A stretch of DNA of 64,000 bases from NCBI GenBank assembly GCA_905182615.1, contig CAJJCG010000016.1:114250-178249 (forward strand), read 5' to 3'. The DNA comes from Alphaproteobacteria bacterium UBA2964. Its GTDB lineage: Bacteria > Pseudomonadota > Alphaproteobacteria > MPNO01 > UBA2964. Both the position numbers and the translations under genes were made by a program. The notes below the pieces were generated by a model. It made no database searches, was not told the DNA's origin, and saw only the letters and a list, made by a program, of their open reading frames with translations. How positions within the stretch are numbered: the first letter of the stretch is position 1; each line of letters opens with the position of its first letter. This document shows, one piece after another, positions 6,268 through 62,190 of this stretch.

Positions 6268-6273
6268 CCTAAT

Positions 6274-8215: not shown

Positions 8216-8472
8216 GATGCTCACCGCCTTGCCTGGGAGGGGTGAATTTTGAGGTTCGCCGACTTCAAATCGCCGGCGTCGTTCGTCCCGAGGATATAAC
8301 AGCCGACAGCGCAATTTCATACGAAAAGGTCGCAGAAGCACGCATTTCCTATGGCGGCAAAGGCCATATTACGGATGTTCAGCAGCCGCGCTATGGAACG
8401 CAGATTCTAGATGTTGTCTTCCCATTCTAGCTAGATGATCAATGAAGCCCTGTAACGAAGGACCCCACAGCG

Positions 8473-8889: not shown

Positions 8890-9189
8890 GTCACCTCCAG
8901 ACGCTCAGATTTCGGCGCGGAGTATATGAACCGTTTCTTGTGACCGCAAGTGCCATGAAGAAATTTACGAAATTATCCTAAGCGCATGATAATACGCTAT
9001 TTTTTATGCCATTCGCCCTAGCTTTGCCAATTCAACTGCCGCTCGGAGCTCTATCTCACCCACAATTCCCTTTAATCGCGGGGCGGTAAGACGTCCTTGC
9101 TGTTATTTGACCAACGCAAGAATCCGATTGAGTTTTTCTTCTGGCTTGTCTGCCGTCAGCGCCTATGGAAAAAATTAGCGAGATTGTAT

Positions 9190-9425
9190 AAGGGAGGATT
9201 TCTGGTTCATTGGCTGGGGCTGGATGTATCTGTCGACAATCCTTGATGATTACTCGCGTTACCTCAATGCTTGAAAGCTATGCACGACCATAAAGGCGAG
9301 TGATGTCACTGAGATCTTGGACCTTGCCCTACTAGCATCAGGTTGTGGTCAGGTCCACGCTGAGCACAAGCCGAGACTGTTGTCTGACAACGGCTCCAGC
9401 TAGGTCTCTGGTGAGCTGGCTGCAA
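9190..9425 (+). pseudogene. Fragment of a DDE (rve integrase-core) transposase, IS3/IS481-like
   Basis: The translation WFIGWGWMYLSTILDDYSRYLNA*KLCTTIKASDVTEILDLALLASGCGQVHAEHKPRLLSDNGSS*VSGELA has the typical rve-core pattern. It carries two in-frame stops (the first at 9272-9274), and both N- and C-terminal parts are missing. Confidence 0.7.
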
Positions 9426-9492
9426 GGACATTTGTCCCAATAAACGGAGCTATAAATTTGGCCGAGTTAGTCATCTGAGATGTTATGAAGGG

Positions 9493-9624
9493 CTATCTTG
9501 CTCTTCCGCGACCCAAAGTGGCTAGCGTAACCCCTTTCATTATTGCCCCAAAGGGGTCTTTTGGATGATCCACCCAACCTCCTTCATAGGCCAGCACATA
9601 CTTGGGTGAATGCTTAAAATTCAT
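9493..9624 (-). pseudogene. N-terminal fragment of a GH108-type lysozyme
   Basis: MNFKHSPKYVLAYEGGWVDHPKDPFGAIMKGVTLATLG resembles the EGGYVNHPKDPGG..GIT start of glycoside hydrolase family 108. It terminates after 43 codons. Confidence 0.5.
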
Positions 9625-9640
9625 TGGCACAATACCTTCT

Positions 9641-11455: not shown

Positions 11456-11567
11456 AATCACCGGCGGGTTAATAACAGTAGTAACTGTCTTAAACTTAAA
11501 CAAACTACGCGTGCGAGCAAATTAGAGCCGTCACTGGCCGTGAGTGAAACGTTTGGTTTCTAATGAT

Positions 11568-47023: not shown

Positions 47024-47929
47024 ATGGAACTCAAACAACACGGTCGCTACGACTACTCGCCGATCACCGAACGCCCCGATTATGACTGGCCCGATGGTAA
47101 ACGGCTGGCCTTTTACATCGGTATGAATATTGAACATTTCAGCTTTGGCGAAGGGTTGGGCCACACCCCTACTAATCCCGGCGTTCAGCCTGACGTCCGC
47201 AATTTTGCCTGGCGCGATTATGGTCTTCGCGTCGGTATCTGGCGGGTTTTTGAGTTGCTGGAAGAGCTTGGACTGCCAGCCTGTCACCTGATGAATACAT
47301 CTATCTATGATTATGCGCCGCAAATCCCGGCCCGCATTCGCGAACGCGGCGATGAGTTTGTGGGGCACGGCATTACCAACTCAGAACAGCAGGGAGATTA
47401 CCCTGAAGACGAAGAGCGCGCCTTAATTAACGACGCTACGGAAGCGTTTAAGAAATATGAAGGCTGTGGCCCGGGCGGCTGGATGGGACCGTGGATTTCT
47501 GAAAGCGATTATACACCGGACCTCCTCGAAGAGGCCGGCTACCGTTTCATCATGGATTGGTCTTGCGATGATCAACCGACCTGGATGCGGACCCGCAACG
47601 GCCGGCTGTTGATGATCCCCTATCATATTGAGATCAATGACTCCCCTGCCCAACTATCACGCCGTCATACAGCCAGCCAGTTTACCGAGATAGTTTGCGG
47701 ACATTTCGATGAGCAGATGCGGCAAAGCCAGAAACAACCACTGGTCTTCTCCCTCGCCCTGCACACATTCGTAGTTGGGCAACCCTATCGTCTCGCAGGG
47801 TTACGGAACATCCTGACCCATATCGTCAATCACACGGATGCCGACAGAATCTGGTTTACCAAACCAGGGGAAATCTATGGTCACGTCGCTGCCCTGCCGC
47901 CCGGCACCGTGCCAGGCGACGGCAGCTAA
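47024..47929 (+). CDS. Polysaccharide-deacetylase-fold hydrolase (PuuE-allantoinase-like)
   Basis: RPDYDWPDGKRLAFYIGMNIEHF, WRDYGLRVGIWRVFELLEE and FVGHGITN are present. The start is the internal ATG at 47024; the tracked 46763 start is antisense to the TauD gene. Confidence 0.75.
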   Translation: MELKQHGRYDYSPITERPDYDWPDGKRLAFYIGMNIEHFSFGEGLGHTPTNPGVQPDVRNFAWRDYGLRVGIWRVFELLEELGLPACHLMNTSIYDYAPQIPARIRERGDEFVGHGITNSEQQGDYPEDEERALINDATEAFKKYEGCGPGGWMGPWISESDYTPDLLEEAGYRFIMDWSCDDQPTWMRTRNGRLLMIPYHIEINDSPAQLSRRHTASQFTEIVCGHFDEQMRQSQKQPLVFSLALHTFVVGQPYRLAGLRNILTHIVNHTDADRIWFTKPGEIYGHVAALPPGTVPGDGS

Positions 47930-47938
47930 CCAATCGGA

Positions 47939-48886
47939 TCAAACACCGTGTGAGGCGGCGACCAACGGGTCCCATTCGATATCGTCATCGCGGACCGCAC
48001 CGATCAACTCGGAGATTTCTTTGATACCGCGTTCATCACACCATTCTTCGAGATCATCAATAATGGTGGTTAGCGCCGTTGGGTTACGGAAACCGGCATA
48101 GCCGATCCCGACACCGGAAGCACCGGCGAGCATATATTCAACGACATCTTCCGCCTTGGTCACACCGCCGATGCCGATAACCGGGATCGAGCATTCCTGA
48201 GCGACCTGATAGACCATCCGCATCACAATCGGTTTGAGCGCAGGCGATACCAGCCCACCAAATTTATTACCCAATGCCGGGCGGAAATTGTCGGTCCTGA
48301 TTTTCAGGCTCAAGAAGGTGTTGCACAGCACCACCGCATCGGCACCGGCTTCTTCCGCCGCGACGGCGATTGAGACGATATCTCCAGCATTTGGCGACAG
48401 CTTCGCCCAGACCGGTTTATCAGTTGCCGCACGAATGCCATCCATCACTAATTTAGTGTGTTCGGAATGCATCGCGAAGTTGCCACCGCTCGGCGCTTTG
48501 GTCGGGCAGGAAATATTGACTTCGATCACATCAACGCCATCAACCGAGAGGTCACGAGTCATCGCCGCAAAATCCTCAGCCGTATCAGCGGAAACACTGA
48601 CGATCAGCGGCGGTTCCCATTTGTTATATTCAGGAACAATATTTTCGAGAAAATAATCGATGCCTTTTCCGGGCAGTCCGATCGACTGGATGATGCCAGC
48701 TTCGGTTTCCGCCATGCGCGGTGTTGGATTGCCAAGACGCGGCTCGCGGCAAATGGTTTTGGCGACCAGTCCACCGAGCCGATTGAGGTCAATGACATCG
48801 CCGTATTCCCACGAAAATGCGCCCGACGCCGGCATGATTGGGTTCTGAAGGGTGATATCCCCTATTTTTACGGAAAGATCTACCAT
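47939..48886 (-). CDS. Dihydroorotate-dehydrogenase-fold (class 1B PyrD-like) flavoenzyme
   Basis: LQNPIMPASGAF, QSIGLPGKG, IEVNISCPT, and the GIGGV / GIGYAGF pattern are present. The ATG at 48886 overlaps the upstream TAG (ATGGTAG). Confidence 0.85.
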   Translation of the reverse strand: MVDLSVKIGDITLQNPIMPASGAFSWEYGDVIDLNRLGGLVAKTICREPRLGNPTPRMAETEAGIIQSIGLPGKGIDYFLENIVPEYNKWEPPLIVSVSADTAEDFAAMTRDLSVDGVDVIEVNISCPTKAPSGGNFAMHSEHTKLVMDGIRAATDKPVWAKLSPNAGDIVSIAVAAEEAGADAVVLCNTFLSLKIRTDNFRPALGNKFGGLVSPALKPIVMRMVYQVAQECSIPVIGIGGVTKAEDVVEYMLAGASGVGIGYAGFRNPTALTTIIDDLEEWCDERGIKEISELIGAVRDDDIEWDPLVAASHGV

Positions 48887-49752
48887 CCGACGGCCTCCTG
48901 CATATTGAAACACGGTCCATCGCGACACACCCGGCGCAGCGTCTTTTCGCCATCGACTTCGAATGTCCGCATACAAATGTAACAAGCGCCCAGCGCACAG
49001 CACATGTTTTGTTCCATCGCCACCTGACCAGCGACATCATGTGATTTGCCGAGACGCTTCATCAGGGTCAGCAGCCGGTTCGATCCACAGGTAAAGAAGG
49101 CGTCCGCCTTACCGTCCGCGATCAGGCCTTCGAGGATCTTCTCGACATTATCGACATTGCTGCTGTCATCGGTATCGACAACTTCAATCACGTTGGCGCC
49201 AAGCCCTTCAAACAGGTCGCGCGACATGACAACTTCCGGGTTCCGCGCACTTAGGATCGCGGTGACGCCGACATTGTGTTCTGCCGCCAATTGAGACAGT
49301 GGGGCGAGCGTCGCCAAGCCAACACCGCGACCAAGCACGACAATGTTCTTCCAGCCTTCCTCCAGCCAGAAGCCTACGCCGAGCGGTCCAACGATATTGA
49401 ATTCATCGTCCGGTTCGAGCATCGCCATGCCCTGAGTGCCACGACCCTCTTTCTTATAAAGAAACTCGAGACGTTTATTCTCGCTATCGACCCGATATAT
49501 ACTCATCGGCCGGCGCATCCAAACTTCGGCGCCATCCGGCGTCGGGCACAGAAGATGAAAGAACTGCCCGGCCTTAGCGGTAAGGGCACGATCCGGCACA
49601 TCGACCACCATCTTAAGGTACTCGTCATTGACGTAATCATTCGACACGACAATCGAAATAAACTCTCCGGCGGGTTTATCCGGATGAGGGTCAACCTCTC
49701 CAATACGGATAGGCTTGGCGGAGTATTTATCCTCCGGCGTCAGATCAGTCAT
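48880..49752 (-). CDS. PyrK-like FAD/NAD(P)-binding electron-transfer subunit with a C-terminal 2Fe-2S cluster
   Basis: RRPMSIY (FAD-binding RxxS), GRGVGLATLAPL, and the C-terminal cluster motif MCCALGACYIC...VCRDGPCF are present. Confidence 0.85.
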   Translation of the reverse strand: MTDLTPEDKYSAKPIRIGEVDPHPDKPAGEFISIVVSNDYVNDEYLKMVVDVPDRALTAKAGQFFHLLCPTPDGAEVWMRRPMSIYRVDSENKRLEFLYKKEGRGTQGMAMLEPDDEFNIVGPLGVGFWLEEGWKNIVVLGRGVGLATLAPLSQLAAEHNVGVTAILSARNPEVVMSRDLFEGLGANVIEVVDTDDSSNVDNVEKILEGLIADGKADAFFTCGSNRLLTLMKRLGKSHDVAGQVAMEQNMCCALGACYICMRTFEVDGEKTLRRVCRDGPCFNMQEAVGW

Positions 49753-49849
49753 GACTTATTGGCCCTTATTGCTTCTCTCTTGATCGCGTTTATAGCACTT
49801 AATTGTAACAAAATAAAGACATGTTCCATTTTTGGCACAGCCTTTATCG

Positions 49850-51193
49850 CTATCGCGTTCCGAACAGCATGGTGATGTTAATCCGGTGATTTTCATAACC
49901 AGCCGCGAAGTTTGGCGCATCAGTACCGTGAAACAAGCGGGAATCAAACAAAACTGCCCGGTTCTCACCATAAGGGATAGCGATCTTCTGATCTCTCTGC
50001 CCCTCCAGGTACGTCTTGATCGCAGCTTTATCCTGATCGTAATCCGTTACCGCCCAGTCATCGAGTGGCAGCACGGTGTAAATCTCCAGACCACCCTGCT
50101 TTGACGCGAGATTGGCACTGTCAGGCGTGACCCAAAAATTAAGACTGACCGCAGCATCGTCAGCATGGACATCAATAGGTATGTCGCCCACCAAACCTTT
50201 AAAGGCCCAAGCCTGAGTCAGCGGATGATCACCAAGAATCTGTGGAAACTTTTTCTTAACGTCTTCGGCGATCTGCAACAGAAGAGGACAGGCCAAACCA
50301 TCTTCGAGATAGGCCGCCAAAAACCCAGTGATATGAGAAAAATCGAACCAGACGGTGCTGCACAGCAGATAACGTTGCAAACGCGCCAAGGCCTCAACTG
50401 TTAGAAAGTCATCAAACGATGCGATTCTAGGGGTCCCGGTTTGAAAGGCCTTTGAAATTTCATCCACTGCCAATTGCGAGTTTACGGTGCCGGAAGGAAG
50501 CTCCGCCGCATCGGCAATGAAATTTGGATAGTTATAACTCTCACCGAACAAAGTGAGTTGCTCAGAAGATAACTCCACGACGGCGTTATCATCGTTGGGC
50601 CAGTCAATCCGCTTCATCGCGAATTCATACGCCCGCGCCAATGAGTCTACTCGTTCAGTGTCGCGTTTCTGAGTCGCGAGATAACGGAACTGATCAATAT
50701 CGTGAAGCAGCTTTGCCCGTGTTGTCGATGCCAGCGACGGATCCAAATTGCCTGCCCGGTTTTCGCCGCGCCGCAAATCCATCGTACGAGCGAAGAAATC
50801 CATCGCCCGGTCACGCTTTCCAAGCCGAAGCCATAACTTTCCCAAGGCCAGTTGTGCGCCGTAGTGTTCAGGATTGATGACAATGACCTCCGCATAGGCT
50901 TCCGCAGCTTCTTCATACCGCCCAGCCTGTTGCAAAGCTTTGGCCCCACTCCACAGCGCCGGCTCATAGTCAGGATCAACAGCGCTTGCCTTTTGGAATT
51001 CAACAATCGCTTCGTCAACTCGACCTGAACTAGCAAGTAGGACACCGAGATTATGCAACACCGCCGGATAATCGGGTCGTTCGGCGAGCACTGCCCGATA
51101 GGCTATTTCCGCCTCCTCCAACTTGCCCTCGCTGTGATAGCCAACGCCTTGTGCTGCACGTTCAATGATATCGCTCGACATGATAGAGATCAC
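49850..51193 (-). CDS. TPR-repeat protein fused to a 2OG/Fe(II)-oxygenase-like domain
   Basis: The N-terminus has TPRs (GKLEEAEIAYRAVLAERPDYPAVLHNLG...). The C-terminus has DVHADD (HxD), LFHGT and HRINITMLF. The GTG at 51193 overlaps the XRE stop; an alternative ATG is at 51181. Confidence 0.7.
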   Translation of the reverse strand: MISIMSSDIIERAAQGVGYHSEGKLEEAEIAYRAVLAERPDYPAVLHNLGVLLASSGRVDEAIVEFQKASAVDPDYEPALWSGAKALQQAGRYEEAAEAYAEVIVINPEHYGAQLALGKLWLRLGKRDRAMDFFARTMDLRRGENRAGNLDPSLASTTRAKLLHDIDQFRYLATQKRDTERVDSLARAYEFAMKRIDWPNDDNAVVELSSEQLTLFGESYNYPNFIADAAELPSGTVNSQLAVDEISKAFQTGTPRIASFDDFLTVEALARLQRYLLCSTVWFDFSHITGFLAAYLEDGLACPLLLQIAEDVKKKFPQILGDHPLTQAWAFKGLVGDIPIDVHADDAAVSLNFWVTPDSANLASKQGGLEIYTVLPLDDWAVTDYDQDKAAIKTYLEGQRDQKIAIPYGENRAVLFDSRLFHGTDAPNFAAGYENHRINITMLFGTR

Positions 51194-52074
51194 CCCGGCT
51201 GGCGCGCGATAAGCTGGCGCATGAATTTTGCTGCCTCAGCACCGCGCAGGGCCCGCCGCCAAAGATCCTGCACTGTGCGTTCGTGCAACTCGAGTGCCTC
51301 AGGTGCAGCGGTAATCATCGCGATCCCGCCATGCACGTTGGGTTGTTCGCCGAGGCGGAATGGACTCATGGCTAACACTTTGCGATCAGCCTGACGAAAA
51401 ATCTGAAAACTAGTATGTGGCAAAGTACCGGGCACGATGCCGATCTGAACGGCAATCGGCTCGTCCTCCATCATGGCGACGAGATGCTCTGCCTCTGCTC
51501 GCGCCCGCGCCCGGCGTTCGCACATCACATTTTCGGGCAGGTCGAGCCGCCCGACGAGACCGTTCTGCAGAAACCGTTCGATCTCCGCGCCTGAAATCAA
51601 ATTCAAGATTCCTGGCTGCCGTTCAAGATACGTCTCTTTGCGTTGCTTCAAGATCGGCAGGAGCCCGTGAACCTGTTCTTCTGCCCTATCGCGATCAATT
51701 TCTTCCGCCGGAATACTTTCGATCAAACATTGTTCGAGGGTCTGATCAAAAACATCGGAGGCCAGCAGGAAAGAAACTGGACCGGCCAATACGACGATAT
51801 GCTCTGTAGTTTCTTCGATTTGCCGAAGGCGTTCAAAGAATGCGACCGCCGATGGGATATACTCAACACCGACACCGAGCAAGGTGGGTACCGATACATC
51901 TAGCAAATCGGCCAGTTTCTCCAGTGTCTCGATCTTGGCGACATCGCCTTTTTCAAATCGATAAAGCGCGGTCCGTGAAATACCGATACGCGTGGCGATC
52001 TCATCAGCACTTAGCCCGGAGGCAAGCCGGAAGGCCTTGAGCCGGTCACCAATATCGTCAAATCGGATCGTCAA
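51190..52074 (-). CDS. XRE-family HTH regulator with a ~220-aa C-terminal domain (DUF5753-like by eye)
   Basis: The HTH is LSADEIATRIGISRTALYRFEKG. The TTG start overlaps the upstream TGA (TTGA at 52071-52074). No in-frame ATG precedes the HTH. Confidence 0.8.
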   Translation of the reverse strand: MTIRFDDIGDRLKAFRLASGLSADEIATRIGISRTALYRFEKGDVAKIETLEKLADLLDVSVPTLLGVGVEYIPSAVAFFERLRQIEETTEHIVVLAGPVSFLLASDVFDQTLEQCLIESIPAEEIDRDRAEEQVHGLLPILKQRKETYLERQPGILNLISGAEIERFLQNGLVGRLDLPENVMCERRARARAEAEHLVAMMEDEPIAVQIGIVPGTLPHTSFQIFRQADRKVLAMSPFRLGEQPNVHGGIAMITAAPEALELHERTVQDLWRRALRGAEAAKFMRQLIARQPG

Positions 52075-54413
52075 GCAGCACCCGAGTTTTTAGCTCCGGC
52101 AATCGCCTCAATAATTTCAGACGGCATGAGAGGCGCCCGCGTCAGATGAACATCGAAAGGCTTCAAGGCATCTTCAACCGCAGAAATAATCGCCGACGGT
52201 GCCGGCACGACGCCACATTCTCCAACGCCCTTCACACCGAGCGGGTTTAAGGGCGACGGCGATTCATGATGGATGATATCAATATTGGGCATCTCGGTTG
52301 ACGAGATCAGCAGATACTCAGCAAAATTCGTGGTTACCGGATTGGCATCAGCGTCATACCCCATCCATTCGTACAAGGTATTGCCGATACCATGCGCGGT
52401 GCCGCCCTGAACCTGACCGTCGACAATCATCGGATTGATAATCGTGCCGCTGTCATGCGAGATCACATAGTTCAAGATCTTCACCCCACCGGTCTCAATA
52501 TCGACCTCGACTTCGACCACCGCAGTACCACAGGCAAAAGCTAAGTTATCGAGAACGACATGCTCGGTTGCTTCCATTCCAGGCTCAATCCCGCCCGGCA
52601 ACGCATAACCGGGCGTCCCGCCGACAGCATGGGCGACCTGTCCTAACGTCACCTTCAGATCAGGTACTCCACGAACATGGATTTCGCCATTCTCGATCTC
52701 GAGATCCTCTTCCGAGGCTTCCAGCATATGCGCCGCGACCTTGAGCGCCTTATCGCGCACTTTCTCGGCCGCGACATGCGCCGACGACCCGGCGACCACG
52801 GCGAGGCGGCTATTCGAAGTTCCGATGCCCAATGAGATCGTTCCAGTATCGCCAGCGGTCACAGTGATATTCTCCATATCGCCGCCAAATTTCTCGCCGA
52901 CGATCTGAGCCATCATCGTATGCGTGCCCTGCCCAATCGCAGTACCACCAGTATAGACATGGATTTTCCCGGACGGCCCTATCCGAACGGTAACTGATTC
53001 AAAAGGCCCACGACCGGTACCTTTTACGTAGTTGGCGAGACCGATGCCGATATAGCGACCCTCAGCGCGGGCCTGTTTCTGACGCGCGCGGAAACCAGCC
53101 CAATCGGCTTTGTCCAAAGCGCTCTGCTGACACACCGGGTAGTCACCCGAGTCCAGCACCACCGGCATGCCGCCACGTGTTTTGAGCGGTTTTTCGTAAG
53201 GCATTTTATCGCCGGGGATCAGATTTCGGCGGCGCACCTCATCGCGTTCGATGCCCAGCTCTGATGCGACACGATCCATCAACCGTTCCATGACGAACAC
53301 ACCCTGTGGGTGACCAGCGCCGCGCACCGGCGTTACCGGTACCTTATTGGTCAGCGCCAGCCGGACATGGGTACTGAACGCAGGGACTTCATAAGGTAAA
53401 GGAATGGTTTCCGCCGCGTTATACGGCAAATTCACACCACGCGCGGTAAACGCGCCATGGTCATGAATAACGGCGCTTTTAATGCCAAGGATTAGGCCTT
53501 CTTCATCCACAGCAATTTCTGCTTCCCAGTATTGGTCGCGTTCCTGGGTCGTCGTGATGAAATGCTCGCGACGGTCTTCCGCCCATTTGATCGGGCTATT
53601 GATCATCCGGGTGGCGAGCGTCAGCACAATGTCTTCTTGATAAACCACCAGCTTGGGGCCAAACCCGCCACCAACATCGGGGGTAATTACCCGTATCTGG
53701 TTTTCATTATGGCCGGTCATGTCGGTGAAAGTCGTTCGCAGAGAATGCGGCATTTGAGTCGAGCTCCACAGCGTCACCTGGTCAGCAAACTCGTCAAACG
53801 ACGCAACACAGCCTCGACATTCGATAGAATGCGACCCCCCGCGATGAATCCAAAGCGATTCCGAAAAAGTATGAGCCGCATTGGCAAAGGCGCCAGCGAC
53901 GTCGCCATAATCCATGTTGAATTCAGCGAGGAGATTATGTTCGGCATCCCGATGCGCAACAGGAGCGCCCGGCGCCATCGCATCGCGACAATCGGCAGAC
54001 GCGGGCAACGGGTCATAATCAACATCGACCAATGTCGCAGCATCTTCAGCAATATATCTGTTGTCAGCAATTACGACGGCGACTGGCTCACCGACATAAG
54101 TCACTTCATCATAGGCAAGTGCCGGACGATCCCGGTTCTGCTTGTAAGATGCGCTCGGCATGCCAACGACCAACCGCTCATTGATTAAATGGGGTCGGAT
54201 ATCATCCATCGTGAAGACAGCATGAACACCCGGATGTGCCAGCGCGGCGTCGGTATTAATGCCGTTGATCGCGGCATGAGCGAAGGGGCTGCGGACGAAC
54301 GCTGCCTGCAACATGCCGGGAAGACGGATATCGTCGATAAAGTTGGCTTCCCCCCGTAACAACGTAGGGTCTTCCAGCCGTTTGGCACGGGTTCCAAATA
54401 CTTTCCAAGCCAT
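52071..54413 (-). CDS. Molybdopterin-dependent hydroxylase large subunit (xanthine dehydrogenase / CoxL family), orphan
   Basis: RLEDPTLLRGEANFIDDI, HAAINGINTDAA and VRGAGHPQGVFVMERLMD are present in a 780-aa protein. No adjacent FAD or 2Fe-2S subunit gene is present. Confidence 0.9.
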   Translation of the reverse strand: MAWKVFGTRAKRLEDPTLLRGEANFIDDIRLPGMLQAAFVRSPFAHAAINGINTDAALAHPGVHAVFTMDDIRPHLINERLVVGMPSASYKQNRDRPALAYDEVTYVGEPVAVVIADNRYIAEDAATLVDVDYDPLPASADCRDAMAPGAPVAHRDAEHNLLAEFNMDYGDVAGAFANAAHTFSESLWIHRGGSHSIECRGCVASFDEFADQVTLWSSTQMPHSLRTTFTDMTGHNENQIRVITPDVGGGFGPKLVVYQEDIVLTLATRMINSPIKWAEDRREHFITTTQERDQYWEAEIAVDEEGLILGIKSAVIHDHGAFTARGVNLPYNAAETIPLPYEVPAFSTHVRLALTNKVPVTPVRGAGHPQGVFVMERLMDRVASELGIERDEVRRRNLIPGDKMPYEKPLKTRGGMPVVLDSGDYPVCQQSALDKADWAGFRARQKQARAEGRYIGIGLANYVKGTGRGPFESVTVRIGPSGKIHVYTGGTAIGQGTHTMMAQIVGEKFGGDMENITVTAGDTGTISLGIGTSNSRLAVVAGSSAHVAAEKVRDKALKVAAHMLEASEEDLEIENGEIHVRGVPDLKVTLGQVAHAVGGTPGYALPGGIEPGMEATEHVVLDNLAFACGTAVVEVEVDIETGGVKILNYVISHDSGTIINPMIVDGQVQGGTAHGIGNTLYEWMGYDADANPVTTNFAEYLLISSTEMPNIDIIHHESPSPLNPLGVKGVGECGVVPAPSAIISAVEDALKPFDVHLTRAPLMPSEIIEAIAGAKNSGAA

Positions 54414-54449
54414 GGGTGCAGCGCTTTCCTATATAGAGAATAACAATTG

Positions 54450-54465
54450 TCTATTGACCAATAGA
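54450..54465. promoter_or_regulatory. Perfect 7-2-7 palindrome, candidate operator upstream of the orphan large-subunit operon
   Basis: TCTATTG-AC-CAATAGA lies 36 nt upstream of the ATG at 54413, in an AT-rich divergent promoter region. Confidence 0.4.
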
Positions 54466-54554
54466 TCTATCAGAATTCGGTGATTTTGTAAAAAAAAGGA
54501 AGATTATATCTTTTTTTGTTACATCTCCCTGTTTTACTGGCACATCCAATTCAT

Positions 54555-54574
54555 AATGTTATATTATAACGATT
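54555..54574. promoter_or_regulatory. Zur-box-like operator upstream of znuA
   Basis: AATGTTATATTATAACGATT has a perfect palindromic core GTTATA-T-TATAAC (54558-54570). It resembles the proteobacterial Zur consensus GAAATGTTATAnTATAACATTTC and lies ~50 nt upstream of the znuA ATG. Confidence 0.65.
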
Positions 54575-54623
54575 TATATCGAATTGGCCGTGAAAACACG
54601 TCATCAACACATTGGGGTAACTT

Positions 54624-55571
54624 ATGAAGTTTAAGCGGGTCGTCTGTTTAGGAGTCGGGTTAACGTTAGTTTCCGGGCTGGCGGCGCCTGTTTCGGCCAC
54701 GGACAATATCGTAGTATCGATCAAGCCGATCCATTCACTGGTCGCGTCAGTTACCAAAGGGGTCAGTGAACCGTTTCTGATATTGCAGCGCCAAACGTCA
54801 CCTCACACCTACAGCCTGCGACCCTCAGAAGCCAGAAAGCTGCACAACGCCAAAGTTGTTTTCTGGATCGGCGAAGAGTTCGAAAACTTTCTGGTGAAAC
54901 CGCTAAAGACGTTGGGCCGCCGGGCGCAGATCGTGACTTTATCCAAGACGGAACAGCTAACCCGCCATAAATTCCGTAAAGCCGTTCAATTCAAATCGAG
55001 AAATGCTAAAACAAAGAAGCATAATCATGGACACCACCACGGAAATACCGATCAACATTTCTGGCTCGACCCAGTCAACGCCATAGCGTTCTCTCGAGAA
55101 ATAGAAACCACGCTGAAGAGCATCGACCCTGCAAATACGCGGATTTATATATCAAATGCCAACCAGCTCCGCGCGCGCCTCAAGACATTGCAAAAAAAGA
55201 CCGCTGCCAGATTAATGCCCCTGCGCCAGGGACGCTTTTATGTTTTTCACGATGCTTATCAATATTTCGAAAACCGTTTCGGCTTATCCGCGCAGGGCGC
55301 CATCATATTCCACCCGGATATTCCGTTAAGCGCCAAACGAGTGTCACAAATTCAGAACAGCATCAAGAAAGCCGGGCCGGTCTGCGTTTTCTCCGAACCC
55401 CAATTCAATCCGAAAACGGTGAAACTGGTTACCAGAGGTACCGCGGCACGCTTGGCAATCCTCGACCCCATCGGGTCGGCGCTGTCAGCTGGCCCGGATC
55501 TCTATTTTCAGCTAATTGAAAAAATCAGCAGCTCATTCGAAAAATGCCTTTCCGACGCGCGTCGCAACTAA
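54624..55571 (+). CDS. znuA: Zinc ABC transporter substrate-binding protein ZnuA
   Basis: It has a signal peptide, IVVSIKPIHSLV, a His-rich loop KKHNHGHHHGNTDQHFWLDP, and FHDAYQYF. Confidence 0.9.
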   Translation: MKFKRVVCLGVGLTLVSGLAAPVSATDNIVVSIKPIHSLVASVTKGVSEPFLILQRQTSPHTYSLRPSEARKLHNAKVVFWIGEEFENFLVKPLKTLGRRAQIVTLSKTEQLTRHKFRKAVQFKSRNAKTKKHNHGHHHGNTDQHFWLDPVNAIAFSREIETTLKSIDPANTRIYISNANQLRARLKTLQKKTAARLMPLRQGRFYVFHDAYQYFENRFGLSAQGAIIFHPDIPLSAKRVSQIQNSIKKAGPVCVFSEPQFNPKTVKLVTRGTAARLAILDPIGSALSAGPDLYFQLIEKISSSFEKCLSDARRN

Positions 55572-57419: not shown

Positions 57420-58428
57420 ATGAACGACACCCCTAATCCAAACTAAATATTTGCCCGCGCCAAAGCGGCGCATGATGCTGACAACGTTACAGAGGCCGAG
57501 GCCCTTTATAAGTAGCTATTGGACATAGCACCCGGACACCCAGACGTTCTGCATTTACTGGGAGTCCTATACGGCCAAATAGGGCGGTTCGACGGCGACC
57601 GGCGTCGCCATTGCTAAAGTGTCTGGTGATCCCAGTTACCACAACAATTTTGGAAACGTTCTGTTGCAGATGAAACGGTGGGATAAAGCTGCAACAGCCT
57701 TTAGTAAATCCCTTGAGATAGCACCCTTACCAATCTTAATGAGACGCCAACAAATCAGCGCTGGCATGTATCTGCCCTCGCCGCCAAGGCCGTCACACAA
57801 CACGAGACCGGTGACGACGCTACAACCACACCTCTGCCATACATGGATGGTTTGATAACCCTTCCGGAATTAAGCCTGCCTGACGGAACCGACGTGCAAG
57901 CCCTTGGCGATTTACTGGCAAACCATCCGAGTTGTATCTGGGAGCGCAGCGACGCCACGACACGTGCCGGCGCACAGTTAAGCAACCTCGCCAAGGACAC
58001 TGACCCAACCATCGGGGTCTTTATTACAGCGCCGAAAGAAAAAATCGAAAGCTATATCAGCACGAAACAGCCTGACCCCGGCCATCCGTTCACGGCGCAT
58101 ATCCCCGAAAGTTGGGACTACAGCATCTGAGCAACGATTCTTGATCAAGACGGGCATCATGCATCCCGCCGCCTGAGTCTCAAGGGTATATTACCTCGAA
58201 GTGCCGGAAGCCATCACAGATCCGACGAATGAAGCGCAGTCTGGCTGGATTGAATTTAGCGCACCAGGCTATGGTATAACGCCTGTCCACCCACTAATTA
58301 TCCGCCGGATCATGCCCGAACCGAGCAAATTGATCTTTTTCCCTTCTTATTTATTCCATCGAACAGCCCCACTTTCGGGTACTGCCCGCCGGATCAGTAT
58401 TTCCTTTAATGTCATTCCGACAAAATAG
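57420..58428 (+). pseudogene. Degraded TPR + 2OG-Fe(II)-oxygenase (2OG-FeII_Oxy_5-like) gene
   Basis: The reading frame is broken into at least three frames (57619-57855, 57843-58130, 58201-58428). In-frame stops start at 57444, and a TGA at 58174-58176 lies where VSRVYYLEVPEA begins. The C-terminal end KLIFFPSYLFHRTAPL...RISISFNV is the family signature. Confidence 0.7.
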
Positions 58429-58532
58429 CGCAAATGAACCATCGTCGGTGAGTTTTACCTGCCGGTTTCTTCCTGTATAAACGTCCCACCGGTCAGCTCA
58501 TTTCCGGTAGAGAGACACATAAAGATAGAACG

Positions 58533-59390
58533 ATGAAACCTGCTGCTTTTGAATATCACGCACCGACCACAATCGATGAAGCCGTCGCCCTTCTGGCGGA
58601 ACATGCACCGAATGATGGTCGCATTCTTGCCGGTGGCCAAAGCTTGGTGCCAACCATGGCTTTCCGGCTGGCTCGGCCAACGCACCTCATAGACATTAAT
58701 AATGTCGCGAACCTCGACAAGCTCGCCATAGAAAGTGGCGCCCTGTGTATTGGCGCGACGGTACGGCATGCCCAGTTCCACACGCCGGCCTGTGATGGCG
58801 TGCTGGGACGCTTGCTGACTGACGTCGTGAGTAATATCGCCCATTACCCGATCCGCCAACGCGGTACGTTCTGTGGCAGTGTCGCCCATTCGGACCCGGC
58901 CTCGGAATGGTGCATGGTCGCCGCAACGCTGGATGCGACAATGATCGCTCAAAGTGCCTCCGGTGAAAGGCTCATTCCCGCCAAAGATTTTTTTGAAACC
59001 GTCATGACCACCGCGCTGAACGAAGACGAGCTGTTGCGGGAAGTCCGCATTCCAGTGCTTAGCGATGACACAGTCTACGGGTTTCAGGAATTCAACCGCC
59101 GAGCCGGTGACTTCGCTATTTCGATGACCCTCGTCACCTATCAGCTTGAGGGTGGTAAAATCGTTGATCCACATGTCGGTGTCGGTGGTGCCGAGGACCG
59201 GCCCCGCCGCATTGCAGAAGCAGAAGCCGCTCTTGCCGGACAAACCCCAGGTGATGACGCTTTCCGAGCTGCGGCAGATGCCGCCGCCGCTGCAATCGAC
59301 CCGATGGAAGACCACGCAACAAATGCTCAGTACCGCCGCGATCTTACCGCGACGCTGGTCCGCCGGGCGCTGGAGAATGCCGCATCATGA
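58533..59390 (+). CDS. Mo-hydroxylase FAD-binding (medium, CoxM-like) subunit
   Basis: FEYHAPTTIDEAVALL, ILAGGQSLVPTMAFR and GTFCGSVAHSDP are present. Confidence 0.9.
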   Translation: MKPAAFEYHAPTTIDEAVALLAEHAPNDGRILAGGQSLVPTMAFRLARPTHLIDINNVANLDKLAIESGALCIGATVRHAQFHTPACDGVLGRLLTDVVSNIAHYPIRQRGTFCGSVAHSDPASEWCMVAATLDATMIAQSASGERLIPAKDFFETVMTTALNEDELLREVRIPVLSDDTVYGFQEFNRRAGDFAISMTLVTYQLEGGKIVDPHVGVGGAEDRPRRIAEAEAALAGQTPGDDAFRAAADAAAAAIDPMEDHATNAQYRRDLTATLVRRALENAAS

Positions 59391-59869
59391 GTGACAAAAA
59401 AGACATAACGCTCACCATTAACGGACGGGACCATAACGTCTCGGTCGATCCACGCTGGACGCTCGCCGACGTCATCCGCGACCATTGCGGACAAACCGGT
59501 ACGCATCTTGGCTGCGAACATGGCATTTGCGGCGCTTGCACAATTCTCGTCGATGATTCTCCAGTCCGGTCCTGCCTGATGTTTGGCATTCAGGCCGATG
59601 GCAAAAAAATCCGCACGGTCGAAGGTCTCGCCAATGGCGATGAGTATCACCCGCTGCAAAGGGCCTTTATAGAAAATCACGCTTTGCAATGCGGCTATTG
59701 CACGCCAGGCTTCCTGATGTTGGCGACTGGAATTCTTGAAGCACAGCCCGATATCAGCGATGACGATTTGAACGATGTTCTCTCGTCAAATCTGTGTCGC
59801 TGCACCGGCTACGCCAATATCATCAAGGCCGTCCGCATCGCGCGCGACGAAATGAAGGCGGCAAGCTGA
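59387..59869 (+). CDS. Mo-hydroxylase [2Fe-2S] (small, CoxS-like) subunit
   Basis: GCEHGICGACTILVD and QCGYCTPGF...CRCTGY cluster motifs are present. It overlaps the upstream gene by 4 nt. Confidence 0.9.
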   Translation: MSDKKDITLTINGRDHNVSVDPRWTLADVIRDHCGQTGTHLGCEHGICGACTILVDDSPVRSCLMFGIQADGKKIRTVEGLANGDEYHPLQRAFIENHALQCGYCTPGFLMLATGILEAQPDISDDDLNDVLSSNLCRCTGYANIIKAVRIARDEMKAAS

Positions 59870-62190
59870 TGGCAACCGCAACAAACAGAATGCTCGGTCA
59901 TCTAGGCGATAGTGTCGAGCGGCTGGAAGATCCACCGCTGGTCACCGGCAAAGGTCGCTTTGTTGGTGACATCAATTTCCCTGACCAATTGCATATGCGG
60001 ATCGTCCGTAGTGACCACGCCCACGGTAAAATCATATCTGTCGACACATCGGCCGCCGAAGCGGTTCCCGGTGTCGTCGCGGTCTGGACCACCGAGAATA
60101 TTGACGACGTCCCCCCAATTGATTTTCGCGAAGGCAGCGATCCAACCCTGGCGTTGTTTCGCCAATATCCACTGGCCCGCGAGCTCGTACGCTATGTCGG
60201 TGATCCCGTGGTCGCGGTCTTTGCTGAAGATCCGTACACCGCCGAAGACGCGGCCGAGCTGGTTGTTATTGAAATCGAACCGCTACCGGTTCTGATTAAC
60301 GCCGACGACCCGCCACAAGATTTCAAAGGCCAAGCAACAACCGAAGCTGCCATTGTCGAACAAGGTTATGGTGACATTGATACAACTTTCGCCAACGCCT
60401 TTAAGGTCGTGGAAATCGACGTGAAGGTCAGCCGTCATACGGGTGTTCCCATGGAATGCCGCGGCGCGATTGGCCGCTATGATGAAGCCCGCGACGTTCT
60501 TGAAATGTATGGCGCGGCAAAAGTGCCGCATCGCAACCGGGACACGTTGTGCCGTATGTTAAACCGGCCAGCCTCTGGCCTTCATCTGTTTGAAGGCCAT
60601 ACCGGCGGCGGATTTGGTATCCGTGGCGAACTTTATCCAGAAGATGTCCTCGTCTGTGTCGCCGCTATGCGACTACGTAGACCGGTAAAATGGATTGAAG
60701 ACCGTCGGGAACATTTGATGGCAGCCAACCATTCCCGCCAGCAACGCCATATTATCCGCGCTGCTGTGGCGGAGGATGGTGAAGTTGTCGGGCTCGATGA
60801 CGAGCTTTATCTCGATCAGGGCGGCTATATCCGTACCCACGGCACCCGCGTCGCCAACATGACGACGGGCACACTGCCCGGCCCATACCGATTTCCGGTA
60901 TACCGGTCTATCTGTCACTTCCGCCTGACCAATAAAACACCAGCGGCGACCTATCGCTCGCCGGGCCGCTGCGAAAGCACCTTTGTGCGCGAACGCCTGA
61001 TGGATGCCGTCGCTGTCGCAATGGATATGGACCCCATCGCTTTACGCCGCCGCAACCTGATCTCGCTCGAGGAAATGCCCTATGGTCGCGCCCTCGATGT
61101 ATTGGGCGATTCCGTTGAACATGACCCAGGAGATTATGCCGGTCTGCTCGATCAGGGTCTGGCGCAAATCGGCTGGGACGATCTCCAGAAAAAACTCGCC
61201 AAACGCCGCGCCAATGGCGAGATGGTCGGCGCTGGTATTTCGATGTTCTTCGAGAAATCCGGTCTCGGCCCATCAGATGGCGCCAAGATTTTCGTCGACA
61301 ATGAAGGCTTTATTGAAGTCGTTACCGGCGGCGCCTCTATCGGCCAGGGTTTTGAAACCGCGATGGCGCAGATTGCCGCCGAAGACCTTGGGACTGACTA
61401 TCGCCGTATTCGCGTTGTTCATGGTCAGACGAACCGGATCGATTACGGAGTCGGCGCCCATGCGTCACGCGCCACCGTTTTGACCGGTACAGCAGTGAGC
61501 CTGACAGCGCAGGCCGTTCGCGCCAAGGCGCTGGATATGGCGGCAGAGCTGCTGCAAACATCAGCAGATTCTTTGACCATCACCGACGGCGTTGTCCATG
61601 CGAAGGACAACCCTACTGGTCCATCATTGACGCTTGGCGAAATCGCCGAAGCATTGATCCCGACCTCCAAACTTCGTGGTGATCGTGAGCCTTATTTGAA
61701 GGGCGAAGAGTGGTTCCACATTGAACATCAAACCTACCCGTATGGTCATCATATTGCGGTCGTAAAAGTTGATCCGGATACCGGTGGCGTCGAGATCGAA
61801 AAATATTTCATCGCCTATGATATTGGCCGGGCAATCAATCCAATGATGATTGAAGGCCAGCTGGTTGGTGGTTTAGCGCAAGGGGTGGGCGGCGCTCTGT
61901 TTGAAGAATTCACCTATTCCGAAACCGGTGACCCACAGGCAGTAACCTTTGCTGATTACCTGATACCTACCTTGCAGGAAGTTCCCGATCCGGAAATTCT
62001 GCTGACCGAAGATTTCCCGAGCATTCGCACACCCCTGGGTATTAAGGGCGCAGGCGAAGCTGGGATAACCGGTGCAGCGGGTGCCATTGCTTCCGCGATT
62101 GATAATGCCATTGGCATCCCCGGTGCTGTGACGGAAACACCCGTTTCACCGCAGCGCCTGAAGAAAATATTGAGCGAACACGGCAAATAA
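59869..62190 (+). CDS. Mo-hydroxylase molybdopterin-binding large (CoxL-like) subunit
   Basis: VERLEDPPLVTGKGRFVGDI and ATYRSPGRCESTFVRERLMD are present in a 773-aa protein. The ATG overlaps the coxS-like TGA (TGATG at 59867-59871). Confidence 0.9.
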   Translation: MATATNRMLGHLGDSVERLEDPPLVTGKGRFVGDINFPDQLHMRIVRSDHAHGKIISVDTSAAEAVPGVVAVWTTENIDDVPPIDFREGSDPTLALFRQYPLARELVRYVGDPVVAVFAEDPYTAEDAAELVVIEIEPLPVLINADDPPQDFKGQATTEAAIVEQGYGDIDTTFANAFKVVEIDVKVSRHTGVPMECRGAIGRYDEARDVLEMYGAAKVPHRNRDTLCRMLNRPASGLHLFEGHTGGGFGIRGELYPEDVLVCVAAMRLRRPVKWIEDRREHLMAANHSRQQRHIIRAAVAEDGEVVGLDDELYLDQGGYIRTHGTRVANMTTGTLPGPYRFPVYRSICHFRLTNKTPAATYRSPGRCESTFVRERLMDAVAVAMDMDPIALRRRNLISLEEMPYGRALDVLGDSVEHDPGDYAGLLDQGLAQIGWDDLQKKLAKRRANGEMVGAGISMFFEKSGLGPSDGAKIFVDNEGFIEVVTGGASIGQGFETAMAQIAAEDLGTDYRRIRVVHGQTNRIDYGVGAHASRATVLTGTAVSLTAQAVRAKALDMAAELLQTSADSLTITDGVVHAKDNPTGPSLTLGEIAEALIPTSKLRGDREPYLKGEEWFHIEHQTYPYGHHIAVVKVDPDTGGVEIEKYFIAYDIGRAINPMMIEGQLVGGLAQGVGGALFEEFTYSETGDPQAVTFADYLIPTLQEVPDPEILLTEDFPSIRTPLGIKGAGEAGITGAAGAIASAIDNAIGIPGAVTETPVSPQRLKKILSEHGK

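What the first reader, a model, noticed from the sequence alone, without database searches (positions are those of the whole stretch)
49850..54465. Orphan Mo-hydroxylase large subunit, XRE regulator and TPR-oxygenase fusion joined by overlapping stop/start codons
On the minus strand a 780-aa molybdopterin hydroxylase large subunit (54413 to 52071) ends in a TGA that overlaps the TTG start of a 294-aa XRE-HTH protein (TTGA, 52071-52074). That protein's TGA overlaps the GTG start of a 447-aa protein (GTGA, 51190-51193; alternative ATG at 51181). The 447-aa protein combines N-terminal TPRs with a C-terminal 2-His-1-carboxylate-like domain (DVHADD ... LFHGT ... HRINITMLF).

No 2Fe-2S or FAD subunit accompanies this large subunit. 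A transcription factor wedged by codon overlaps between a redox subunit and a TPR-oxygenase is not a standard catabolic layout. It suggests a functionally linked three-gene unit of unknown role.

A perfect palindrome TCTATTG-AC-CAATAGA (54450-54465) sits 36 nt upstream of the first gene and is a candidate operator. The PyrK/PyrD-like pair follows about 100 nt downstream on the same strand.
Basis: partly seen in the sequence, partly recalled or inferred. Interest (0 to 1): 0.6.

Follow-up and report, generated by a model that had tools for sequence, protein, structure and literature searches.

The report
XRE-controlled N-heterocycle breakdown gene module
The three genes are real, but they belong to a wider conserved five-gene set in uncultured marine Alphaproteobacteria: a regulator, a dihydroorotate-dehydrogenase-like reductase, an oxygenase-like protein and a molybdenum hydroxylase subunit that probably break down a nitrogen-containing ring compound; the set is uncharacterised but of an ordinary kind.

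Summary
All ORFs exist as described.

- **CoxL/XRE overlap:** it is real and conserved. It reads ATGA in 10 of 12 relatives that carry the large subunit; the window's TTG replaces their ATG.
- **XRE/TPR overlap:** the GTGA overlap is not conserved. The homologous start is ATG 51181, giving 443 aa.
- **"Orphan" large subunit:** only locally orphan. A full coxM-coxS-coxL set lies 4 kb away, in the window and in 10 of 12 relatives. In this genome 22 of 33 large subunits lack an adjacent small subunit.
- **Conserved unit:** across 37 related loci it is XRE-(TPR protein)-PyrK-PyrD, not the proposed trio. XRE is followed by PyrK in all 34 loci with enough flank. The TPR gene is present in 30. The CoxL gene sits upstream in about 12.
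- **Palindrome 54450-54465:** neither unusual nor conserved.
- **Likely operator:** a 36-bp element, TGTAACAAAA-N16-TTTTGTTACA, lies upstream of pyrK in nearly all loci and again upstream of coxL. These are the two best matches in the whole genome.
- **TPR protein:** it keeps an invariant HxD...H...R motif in a C-terminal domain that has no Pfam model.
- **PyrD-like protein:** it keeps the catalytic Cys but has lost orotate-binding Asn residues. A housekeeping class-2 PyrD lies elsewhere.

Best reading: a locally regulated catabolic module for an orotate-like N-heterocycle. The substrate is unknown.

The parts
52071..54413 (-). CoxL-type (xanthine dehydrogenase/CODH family) molybdopterin large subunit, 780 aa; first gene of the coxL-xre-tpr unit
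   Evidence: Pfam finds Ald_Xan_dh_C, MoCoBD_1 and MoCoBD_2. The best NCBIfam match, CODH_aero_grp5, scores 728 bits, below its 950 cut-off. The loop reads PVRGAGH, not the form-I AYXCSFR, and GVGE and GGGFGPK are present (read). It is 65-97% identical in 12 relatives.
51190..52074 (-). XRE-family regulator, 294 aa: N-terminal HTH (about residues 8-66) plus a C-terminal domain of about 225 aa of unknown fold. It has a TTG start that overlaps the coxL stop (TTGA).
   Evidence: HTH_3 E=4.5e-12. There is a weak DUF5753 hit on the C-terminal part. It is 69-96% identical in 36 loci, with invariant SRTALYRFEKG. The start codon position is conserved.
49850..51181 (-). TPR protein, 443 aa counted from the conserved ATG. 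It has about 4 TPR pairs (residues 1-140) and a 300-aa C-terminal domain with the HxD...H...R motif (putative Fe(II)/2OG-oxygenase-like).
   Evidence: TPR families. Invariant H339, D341, H418 and R433. AF2 pLDDT is 81 with a beta-rich C-terminus. There are sub-threshold PF13640 hits in 6 family members. It is single-copy in three genomes.
48880..49752 (-). PyrK-like FAD/[2Fe-2S] electron-transfer subunit, 290 aa
   Evidence: DHODB_Fe-S_bind. Match to 5KSW_B/1EP1_B is 90 bits with the Cys ligands kept. NCBIfam score is 128 bits, below the 314 cut-off.
47939..48886 (-). PyrD-like FMN subunit, 315 aa. The true start is ATG 48886, which overlaps the pyrK stop (ATGGTAG).
   Evidence: DHO_dh 206 bits. 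Match to 1EP1_A is 228 bits. NISCPT replaces NISCPN and IQSIGLPGKG replaces LNAIGLQNPG. The start was read.
49804..49839 (-). 36-bp composite inverted repeat O2 (TGTGCCAAAAATGGAACATGTCTTTATTTTGTTACA). It begins 10 nt after the tpr stop and ends 52 nt before the pyrK ATG. A conserved TATAAA (49794-49789) follows it.
   Evidence: It is conserved in 28 loci plus variants in the TPR-less clade. It is the top PWM hit in the 2.45-Mb genome at 56 bits. It is the only pattern match outside the coxL site in five genomes.
54487..54523 (-). Second copy O1 (TGTAACAAAAAAAGATATAATCTTCCTTTTTTTTACA; one extra T in the spacer or arm), 74 nt upstream of the coxL ATG
   Evidence: It is the second-best PWM hit in the whole genome at 20.5 bits. 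It is conserved in all ten aligned coxL upstream regions. It scores 15-39 bits in 8 relatives.
54450..54465 (-).
   Evidence: It is perfect only in the window, 6 of 7 in L006, and lost in L009, L007, L012 and L014. The window has 6 such palindromes against 3.9 expected.
58533..62190 (+). coxM (FAD, 58533-59390), coxS (2x[2Fe-2S], 59387-59869) and coxL2 (to 62190). These are the likely source of the M and S subunits for the unaccompanied large subunit.
   Evidence: Pfam. The set is present within 6 kb in 10 of 12 CoxL-bearing relatives. CoxL2 is 35% identical to the orphan large subunit.

Best explanation
This is a locally regulated catabolic module of uncultured marine Alphaproteobacteria.

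**Regulation.** The 294-aa XRE protein has an HTH and a sensor-like C-terminal domain. It most likely binds the 36-bp element TGTAACAAAA-N16-TTTTGTTACA. That element occurs in front of pyrK-pyrD and in front of coxL, the first gene of coxL-xre-tpr. The regulator would therefore control its own unit and the reductase genes. xre is translationally coupled to coxL through the ATGA/TTGA overlap.

**Enzymes.**
- The CoxL-type subunit assembles with the CoxM and CoxS subunits encoded 4 kb away and hydroxylates an N-heteroaromatic, probably carboxylated, substrate.
- The PyrK/PyrD-like flavoprotein is a re-tooled class-1B dihydroorotate dehydrogenase. It reduces (dearomatises) the resulting orotate-like ring.
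- Neighbouring hydrolases (PuuE-like, amidase, ATZ/TRZ amidohydrolase) and TauD-type oxygenases finish the breakdown.
- The TPR protein is a divergent Fe(II)/2-oxoglutarate-type oxygenase that adds a hydroxylation step in most lineages.

**Shown:** gene content, starts, synteny, motif conservation, and the genome-wide uniqueness of the two DNA sites.

**Inferred:** that XRE binds these sites, whether it activates or represses, which subunits partner with CoxL, and the chemistry and substrate.
For: **Synteny.**
- XRE is followed by PyrK in all 34 loci with enough flank, and by PyrD wherever the contig reaches it.
- The TPR gene lies between XRE and PyrK in 30 loci.
- CoxL with a conserved overlap precedes XRE in 12 loci.
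- Mo-hydroxylase genes and/or UbiD genes flank most loci, in all three layout types.

**DNA element.**
- It is conserved at a fixed distance (83-90 nt) from the pyrK ATG in 28 loci.
- In the 2.45-Mb genome the two best PWM hits are exactly the pyrK and coxL upstream sites.
- A degenerate pattern finds only these cluster sites in five genomes of 2.5-4.5 Mb, with zero control hits.
- The coxL-upstream copy is conserved in 10 aligned relatives.
- The HTH recognition helix is invariant, as expected for a conserved operator.

**Enzymes.**
- PyrD-like keeps the catalytic Cys, but two Asn positions of the DHODB pocket are changed.
- PyrK keeps its Fe-S cysteines.
- A bona fide quinone-dependent PyrD lies on contig C122, scoring 425 bits against a 366 cut-off. 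The four related genomes searched each hold a second DHO_dh gene, scoring about 270-280 bits, away from this cluster.
- CoxM/CoxS are conserved neighbours.

**Precedent.** A Mo-hydroxylase homologue plus a DPD/DHOD-like flavin reductase that dearomatises an N-heterocycle is known from XdhD-YgfK in the reductive urate pathway (PMC12507026).
Against: - No binding, expression or enzyme data exist.
- CoxL is absent upstream of XRE in two thirds of loci and the TPR gene is absent in six, so neither is essential to the core.
- The XRE C-terminal domain has no recognisable ligand-binding fold (AF2 pLDDT 66; only the HTH matched).
- The oxygenase fold of the TPR protein rests on a motif and sub-threshold Pfam hits only. 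Fold search saw only the TPR part, and a PDB profile search found nothing.
- The 26-bp spacing between outer half-site centres is unusual for a simple HTH dimer.
- No known substrate fits uniquely.
Confidence: 0.55

Rival explanations
1. Loose neighbourhood rather than one pathway. XRE regulates only itself and pyrK-pyrD. The Mo-hydroxylase large subunit and the TPR protein are passengers that landed next to xre in some lineages and act in unrelated reactions.
For: CoxL precedes XRE in only about 12 of 37 loci. The TPR gene is missing in L016, L017, L024, L030, L033 and L035. Three of those six genomes have no such domain at all, and other family members lie in unrelated contexts without an XRE gene. 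The genome is crowded with 33 large-subunit genes.
Against: The ATGA overlap between coxL and xre is kept in 10 of 12 loci. The 36-bp element is duplicated in front of coxL. The TPR gene is single-copy and always in this cluster in three genomes. Mo-hydroxylase genes accompany most loci, in all three layout types.
Confidence: 0.2
2. XRE and the TPR-oxygenase form a signalling pair. The TPR domain recognises a protein, possibly XRE itself or a pathway enzyme, and the oxygenase domain hydroxylates it. Transcription of the module would then depend on O2, Fe(II) or 2-oxoglutarate.
For: TPR plus a double-stranded-beta-helix oxygenase is the architecture of protein hydroxylases such as AspH and collagen prolyl hydroxylase (established knowledge). 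The tpr gene follows xre within 4-8 nt in the loci inspected. It is single-copy. XRE is unusually conserved, with 77% mean column identity.
Against: XRE, the operator and pyrKD persist without the TPR gene in six loci. Unlinked family members have no XRE neighbour. The oxygenase fold is unverified.
Confidence: 0.08
3. The large subunit does not use CoxS/CoxM. Instead it hands electrons from ring hydroxylation directly to the PyrK [2Fe-2S]/FAD and on to the PyrD FMN, coupling hydroxylation and reduction in one complex. This idea was raised by an earlier agent for a related locus.
For: The genome has 33 large-subunit genes but only 10 small and 9 medium. L033 has large-subunit genes on both sides of xre-pyrK-pyrD and no S or M gene within 8 kb. 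PyrK-like has about 25 extra N-terminal residues compared with DHODB PyrK.
Against: In the window and in 10 of 12 CoxL-bearing relatives a coxM-coxS pair is a conserved neighbour. PyrK is unrelated to CoxS, and no such complex is known. Most loci have pyrKD without an adjacent large subunit.
Confidence: 0.05
4. pyrK-pyrD is simply the biosynthetic class-1B dihydroorotate dehydrogenase, and XRE is a pyrimidine-biosynthesis regulator.
For: PyrD-like passes the NCBIfam PRK07259 cut-off (328 bits against 269) and is 82-99% conserved in most of the related loci, falling to 62-64% in the clade without the TPR gene.
Against: A quinone-dependent PyrD is present on C122, and the four related genomes each hold a second DHO_dh gene elsewhere. 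Orotate-pocket Asn residues are replaced. PyrK scores far below its cut-offs. The neighbours are catabolic.
Confidence: 0.03

Closest known systems
XdhD-YgfK steps of the reductive uric-acid pathway of E. coli (PMC12507026)
   Same: A xanthine-dehydrogenase-family Mo enzyme acts together with an FMN/FAD/Fe-S reductase of the DHOD/DPD lineage to dearomatise an N-heterocycle. Ring-opening amidohydrolases follow, and the genes are clustered.
   Different: Here the reductase is a two-subunit PyrK/PyrD (class 1B) pair, not the fused YgfK. The Mo subunit is CoxL-type, with separate S and M subunits encoded apart. The hosts are aerobic marine Alphaproteobacteria. The substrate is unknown. An XRE regulator and a TPR/oxygenase-like protein are added.
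Class 1B dihydroorotate dehydrogenase PyrDB/PyrK (Lactococcus lactis, PDB 1EP1-1EP3, 5UE9)
   Same: Same two-subunit architecture, catalytic Cys (NISCP), FMN barrel, and PyrK Cys ligands for [2Fe-2S].
   Different: Pocket residues are changed (N to Q in LNAIGL, QN to PG, PN to PT). PyrK falls below family cut-offs and has an N-terminal extension. A housekeeping class-2 PyrD exists elsewhere. The context is catabolic.
Form-II CoxL-like / xanthine dehydrogenase family hydroxylases with L, M and S subunits
   Same: Same three Pfam domains, with the catalytic GVGE and GGGFG motifs. A neighbouring coxM-coxS-coxL operon is present.
   Different: It has no S or M gene of its own. It is not a CO dehydrogenase (no AYXCSFR; below the NCBIfam cut-off). 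It is one of 22 unaccompanied large-subunit genes in a genome with 33.
TPR-containing 2OG/Fe(II) oxygenases (AspH-type protein hydroxylases; bacterial TPR + PF13759 proteins)
   Same: An N-terminal TPR array followed by a C-terminal domain with HxD...H and a basic residue. A TPR+PF13759 paralogue lies in the same neighbourhood in relatives and survives as a pseudogene in the window.
   Different: The C-terminal 300 aa match no Pfam model. They show only sub-threshold PF13640 hits and no significant profile match to the PF13759 paralogue. The substrate is unknown.
XRE-family catabolic regulators with a C-terminal sensor domain (e.g. BzdR, MmyB-like regulators)
   Same: An N-terminal Cro/C1 HTH plus a larger C-terminal domain. 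The gene is embedded in the pathway it presumably controls. An inverted-repeat site lies at the promoter.
   Different: The C-terminal domain matches neither the shikimate-kinase-like nor the MmyB-like ligand domain. Only a weak DUF5753 hit was found. The 36-bp operator with 26-bp half-site spacing is unlike described sites.

Membership tests
Xanthine dehydrogenase / aerobic CODH family, Mo-binding large subunit | Ald_Xan_dh_C, MoCoBD_1 and MoCoBD_2 domains over the full length | tested here: met
   E-values 1e-28, 5e-73 and 6e-74
Aerobic CO dehydrogenase (form I CoxL) | Active-site loop AYXCSFR and a score above the NCBIfam cut-off | tested here: not met
   The loop reads PVRGAGH. TIGR02416 scores 534 bits against a cut-off of 991, and NF040766 scores 728 against 950.
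Mo-hydroxylase holoenzyme (L+M+S) | 2Fe-2S (Fer2_2) and FAD (FAD_binding_5) subunits encoded with the large subunit | tested here: not met
   There are none in the operon. The nearest are 5.3-6.4 kb away in genome coordinates, in a separate divergent operon. Sharing of these subunits is inferred.
XRE (Cro/C1) HTH transcription factors | HTH_3/HTH_31 domain | tested here: met
   46 bits against a cut-off of 23. Foldseek matches SinR, 434 repressor and HipB HTH domains.
2OG-Fe(II) oxygenase superfamily (DSBH) | Conserved HxD/E...H iron triad plus a basic 2OG-binding residue | tested here: met
   H339, D341, H418 and R433 are invariant in 22 sequences of 48-89% identity
2OG-Fe(II) oxygenase superfamily (DSBH) | Significant profile or fold match to a known DSBH oxygenase | tested here: inconclusive
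   No Pfam hit for the window protein. PF13640 hits at E=0.02-0.05 in 6 family members. The PDB profile search was empty. Foldseek was dominated by the TPR part.
Class 1B dihydroorotate dehydrogenase (PyrD subunit) | Score above the family cut-off and a catalytic Cys | tested here: met
   NF005574 scores 328 bits against a cut-off of 269. NISCP is aligned to 1EP1_A.
Class 1B dihydroorotate dehydrogenase (functional DHOD) | Orotate-binding Asn residues (LNAIGLQN, NISCPN) and a PyrK partner above its cut-off | tested here: not met
   The residues read IQSIGLPG and NISCPT. PyrK-like scores 128 bits against a cut-off of 314. The roles of these residues are taken from knowledge of the DHOD A/B structures.

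The most novel reading that the evidence does not exclude
The XRE regulator and the TPR/oxygenase-like protein form a bacterial hydroxylation switch. The TPR array docks a protein, either the regulator itself or a pathway enzyme, and the Fe(II)/2OG domain hydroxylates it. Expression or activity of the heterocycle-degrading module would then be gated by oxygen, iron or 2-oxoglutarate, a prokaryotic analogue of PHD/FIH-type control. A second unexcluded reading is direct electron hand-over from the unaccompanied Mo subunit to PyrK/PyrD.
Probability: 0.08. Interest if true: 0.8.

Novelty: new variant of a known kind. Interest (0 to 1): 0.4.

Why it matters
If the reading is right, it defines four things:
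1. An uncharacterised, very conserved XRE regulator subfamily together with its operator.
2. A re-tooled class-1B DHOD that works as a catabolic ring reductase next to Mo hydroxylases in abundant, uncultured marine Alphaproteobacteria.
3. A large TPR-linked oxygenase-like domain family, with about 2,400 clusters at 50% identity, that has no Pfam model.
4. A genome style in which many Mo large subunits share a few electron-transfer subunits.

It points to an unknown route for turnover of dissolved N-heterocyclic carboxylates in seawater. It is not a new principle. Catabolic clusters with a local regulator and the pairing of a Mo hydroxylase with a flavin reductase are both known.

Tried and rejected
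- **Foldseek on the full TPR-protein model (PDB and BFVD):** it returned only TPR matches, so it says nothing about the C-terminal domain.
- **Profile of the C-terminal domain against PDB sequences:** nothing found.
- **hhalign against the PF13759 paralogue:** only a 21-column motif match, E=0.16.
- **XRE model:** too poor (pLDDT 66), and only the HTH matched.
- **Rfam on 47900-54700:** nothing relevant, so the conserved intergenic element is not a known RNA.
- **Sigma-70 and terminator scans:** no minus-strand promoter consensus and no terminator between tpr and pyrK.
- **Literature searches:** searches for a PyrK/PyrD-like catabolic reductase, orphan CoxL and isonicotinate/citrazinate clusters gave no direct match.
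- **Biosynthetic DHODB reading:** rejected.
- **Sigma-54 promoter inside the 36-bp element:** rejected, because there is no GC at the -12 position (read from the sequence).
- **General XRE pairing of the TPR-oxygenase family:** rejected.
Full report
**1. Observation**

On the minus strand the window carries five ORFs:
- 54413-52071, 780 aa
- 52074-51190, 294 aa, TTG start
- 51193-49850, 447 aa from GTG, or 443 aa from ATG 51181
- 49752-48880, 290 aa
- an ORF ending at 47939

Pfam assigns them as follows:
- Ald_Xan_dh_C, MoCoBD_1 and MoCoBD_2 to the first
- HTH_3/HTH_31 to residues 8-66 of the second
- only TPR families to residues 1-145 of the third
- DHODB_Fe-S_bind to the fourth
- DHO_dh to the fifth

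The TTGA and GTGA overlaps, and the palindrome at 54465-54450, are in the sequence.

**2. Gene starts**

- **XRE.** In relatives fetched by exact-protein look-up and by a genome scan, XRE starts with ATG at the very codon that is TTG in the window. The N-terminus MTIRFDDIG is conserved. The ATGA overlap with the large-subunit stop occurs in 10 of 12 relatives that have this gene; the other two overlap by 17 nt and 1 nt. The first overlap is therefore real and conserved, and the refutation "XRE starts further downstream" fails.
- **TPR protein.** The second overlap is not conserved. Relatives start the TPR gene 4-8 nt after the XRE stop, at the position of window ATG 51181, and the common homologue length is 443 aa.
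- **PyrD.** It starts at ATG 48886, overlapping the pyrK stop (ATGGTAG). The 354-aa ORF listed is an over-extension.

**3. Is the large subunit an orphan?**

A complete coxM (58533-59390), coxS (59387-59869) and coxL2 (to 62190) set lies 4.1 kb away on the other strand, followed by a UbiD decarboxylase gene.

The whole assembly is 2.45 Mb and 73% complete. It has 33 MoCoBD_1 genes but only 10 Fer2_2 and 9 FAD_binding_5 genes. Of the 33 large-subunit genes, 22 have no small-subunit gene within 4 kb. An unaccompanied large subunit is therefore the rule here.

The neighbouring M/S pair is conserved next to 10 of 12 CoxL-bearing relatives. The two large subunits are 35% identical.

The protein is not a CO dehydrogenase. 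Its loop reads PVRGAGH and it falls below the NCBIfam cut-offs.

**4. Synteny**

The XRE protein has thousands of homologues, nearly all of 294 aa and 69-100% identical. All 36 genome loci are MAGs of uncultured marine Alphaproteobacteria, labelled Rhodospirillaceae, Alphaproteobacteria, or in one case Paracoccaceae.

tblastn of the window proteins on these loci, together with L004, gives the following:
- XRE is followed by PyrK in all 34 loci with enough flank, and by PyrD wherever the contig reaches it.
- The TPR gene lies between XRE and PyrK in 30 loci. It is absent in L016, L017, L024, L030, L033 and L035.
- The large subunit precedes XRE in about 12 loci.

Three layouts recur:
- coxL-xre-tpr-pyrKD with a divergent znuA, tauD and coxMSL, which is the window's type
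- xre-tpr-pyrKD with a CoA ligase and an alcohol dehydrogenase downstream, and a divergent MBL-fold protein, rhodanese, UbiD, amidohydrolase-2 and an IorAB-type Mo enzyme
- ubiD-xre-pyrKD with a divergent coxMSL

The invariant core is thus XRE-PyrK-PyrD. Mo hydroxylases and/or UbiD are near in most loci, in all three layouts.

**5. Regulatory DNA**

The 97-nt tpr-pyrK spacer is strikingly conserved even between loci whose XRE proteins are 75-78% identical. It holds TGTAACAAAA-N16-TTTTGTTACA, then 8-9 nt, then a TATAAA-like box.

A weight matrix built from 26 distinct sites was scanned over the whole genome:
- The best hit was the window site 49804-49839, at 56 bits.
- The second-best position in 2.45 Mb was 54488-54523, at 20.5 bits, 74 nt upstream of the coxL ATG.
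- Nothing else scored above 13 bits.

The coxL-upstream copy is conserved in all ten aligned upstream regions. It scores 15-39 bits in 8 relatives. In the ubiD-xre clade a copy sits upstream of ubiD (L030 and L038).

A degenerate pattern with up to 2 mismatches hits only these cluster sites in five genomes of 2.5-4.5 Mb. The reversed-pattern control gave zero hits.

Rfam finds no RNA family here. No terminator separates tpr from pyrK.

Palindromes of this kind occur 6 times in the window against 3.9 expected.

Two points are inference:
- XRE binds the 36-bp element. The invariant recognition helix SRTALYRFEKG fits a conserved site.
- If TATAAA (49794-49789) is the -10 box, the element's centre lies about 40 bp upstream of the start site and replaces a -35 hexamer. 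That is compatible with class-II-type activation or with repression by occlusion.

**6. The TPR protein**

H339-A-D341, H418 and R433 are invariant in 22 homologues down to 48% identity. The refutation "lacks metal ligands on alignment" therefore fails.

The AF2 model (pLDDT 81) has a TPR solenoid followed by a mixed, beta-rich domain. Fold searches returned only TPR matches.

The C-terminal 300 aa have no Pfam match and no PDB sequence match. There is only a motif-level match to the neighbouring PF13759 paralogue. Sub-threshold PF13640 hits that cover nearly the whole model recur in six family members.

A profile search finds 2,440 representative clusters at E<=1e-3, with the domain always C-terminal to variable TPR arrays. 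In three genomes it is single-copy and sits in this cluster.

Among the six genomes whose cluster lacks the gene, three have longer family members elsewhere, in unrelated contexts without an XRE gene, and three have none.

The protein is most likely a divergent Fe(II)/2OG-type oxygenase. Superfamily membership is not proven, and it is an accessory part of the module.

**7. The PyrK/PyrD pair**

- PyrD-like aligns over its full length with L. lactis DHODB (1EP1_A, 228 bits) and keeps NISCP.
- It reads IQSIGLPGKG where DHODB has LNAIGLQNPG, and NISCPT where DHODB has NISCPN. By knowledge of the DHOD structures, these Asn residues bind orotate.
- PyrK-like keeps the Fe-S cysteines and RRPMS but scores far below family cut-offs.
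- A genuine quinone-dependent PyrD is on C122 (425 bits against a 366 cut-off). The four related genomes searched each hold a second DHO_dh gene, scoring about 270-280 bits, away from this cluster.

The pair is therefore a paralogue with an altered pocket.

**8. Mechanism proposed**

Confidence in this proposal is 0.55.

- **Regulation.** XRE controls coxL-xre-tpr and pyrKD through O1 and O2.
- **Hydroxylation.** The large subunit works with the neighbouring CoxM/CoxS to hydroxylate an N-heteroaromatic carboxylate.
- **Reduction.** PyrKD-like enzyme reduces the orotate-like ring.
- **Ring opening.** The PuuE-like, amidase, ATZ/TRZ and TauD-type neighbours complete the breakdown.

The closest worked-out logic is XdhD-YgfK in reductive urate degradation (PMC12507026). 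The substrate is unknown. Hydroxylated pyridine or pyrimidine carboxylates are only a guess.

Earlier notes of this scan on a related locus reached a similar reading. They are not independent evidence.

**9. Verdict**

The finding is real, but it is an ordinary kind of thing: an uncharacterised catabolic gene cluster with a local regulator. Its most useful products are the conserved operator, the XRE subfamily, the re-tooled DHODB and the unannotated TPR-linked oxygenase-like domain.

Noticed in passing
window 54558-54570 and 54624-55571: A Zur-box-like palindrome GTTATAATATAAC lies about 55 nt upstream of a divergent znuA-like gene (ZnuA Pfam, His-rich loop). The box is conserved in 9 of 10 aligned relatives. 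znuA shares its intergenic region with the coxL promoter.
   Followed up: partly
window 57420-58434 (+): This is a decayed paralogue of a TPR + 2OG-FeII_Oxy_5 (PF13759) protein that is intact (436 aa) in relatives L001-L003. tblastn pieces fall in frames 3, 1, 3 and 1, and residues of about 107-199 are missing.
   Followed up: yes
whole genome G000: There are 33 Mo-hydroxylase large-subunit genes in a 2.45-Mb, 73%-complete MAG, against 10 small (2Fe-2S) and 9 medium (FAD) subunit genes. Of the 33 large-subunit genes, 22 have no S gene within 4 kb. This implies extensive sharing of electron-transfer subunits, or S/M-independent large subunits.
   Followed up: partly
window 52072-52074: This genome uses TTG as the xre start, where all 12 inspected CoxL-bearing relatives and L004 use ATG. 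Near-identical copies (99-100%) of the protein are seen on many contigs.
   Followed up: partly
L033 (JAKZTB010000106.1) 5710-13111: The layout is large subunit - xre - pyrK - pyrD - second large subunit (32% identical to the first), with no CoxS or CoxM gene within the 16.9-kb locus. This arrangement prompts the idea of direct Mo-subunit to PyrK electron transfer.
   Followed up: no
TPR protein residues 146-443 (window 49850-50746): The C-terminal 300-aa domain defines a large family with no Pfam model. It has 2,440 representative clusters at E<=1e-3 and 939 at E<=1e-30, and it is always C-terminal to TPR arrays, in proteins of 250-950 aa.
   Followed up: partly
window 47939-49003: The mechanical ORF list gives a 354-aa PyrD from GTG 49003. 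The conserved start is ATG 48886 (315 aa), overlapping the pyrK stop by 7 nt (ATGGTAG) in the window and in all four relatives inspected.
   Followed up: yes
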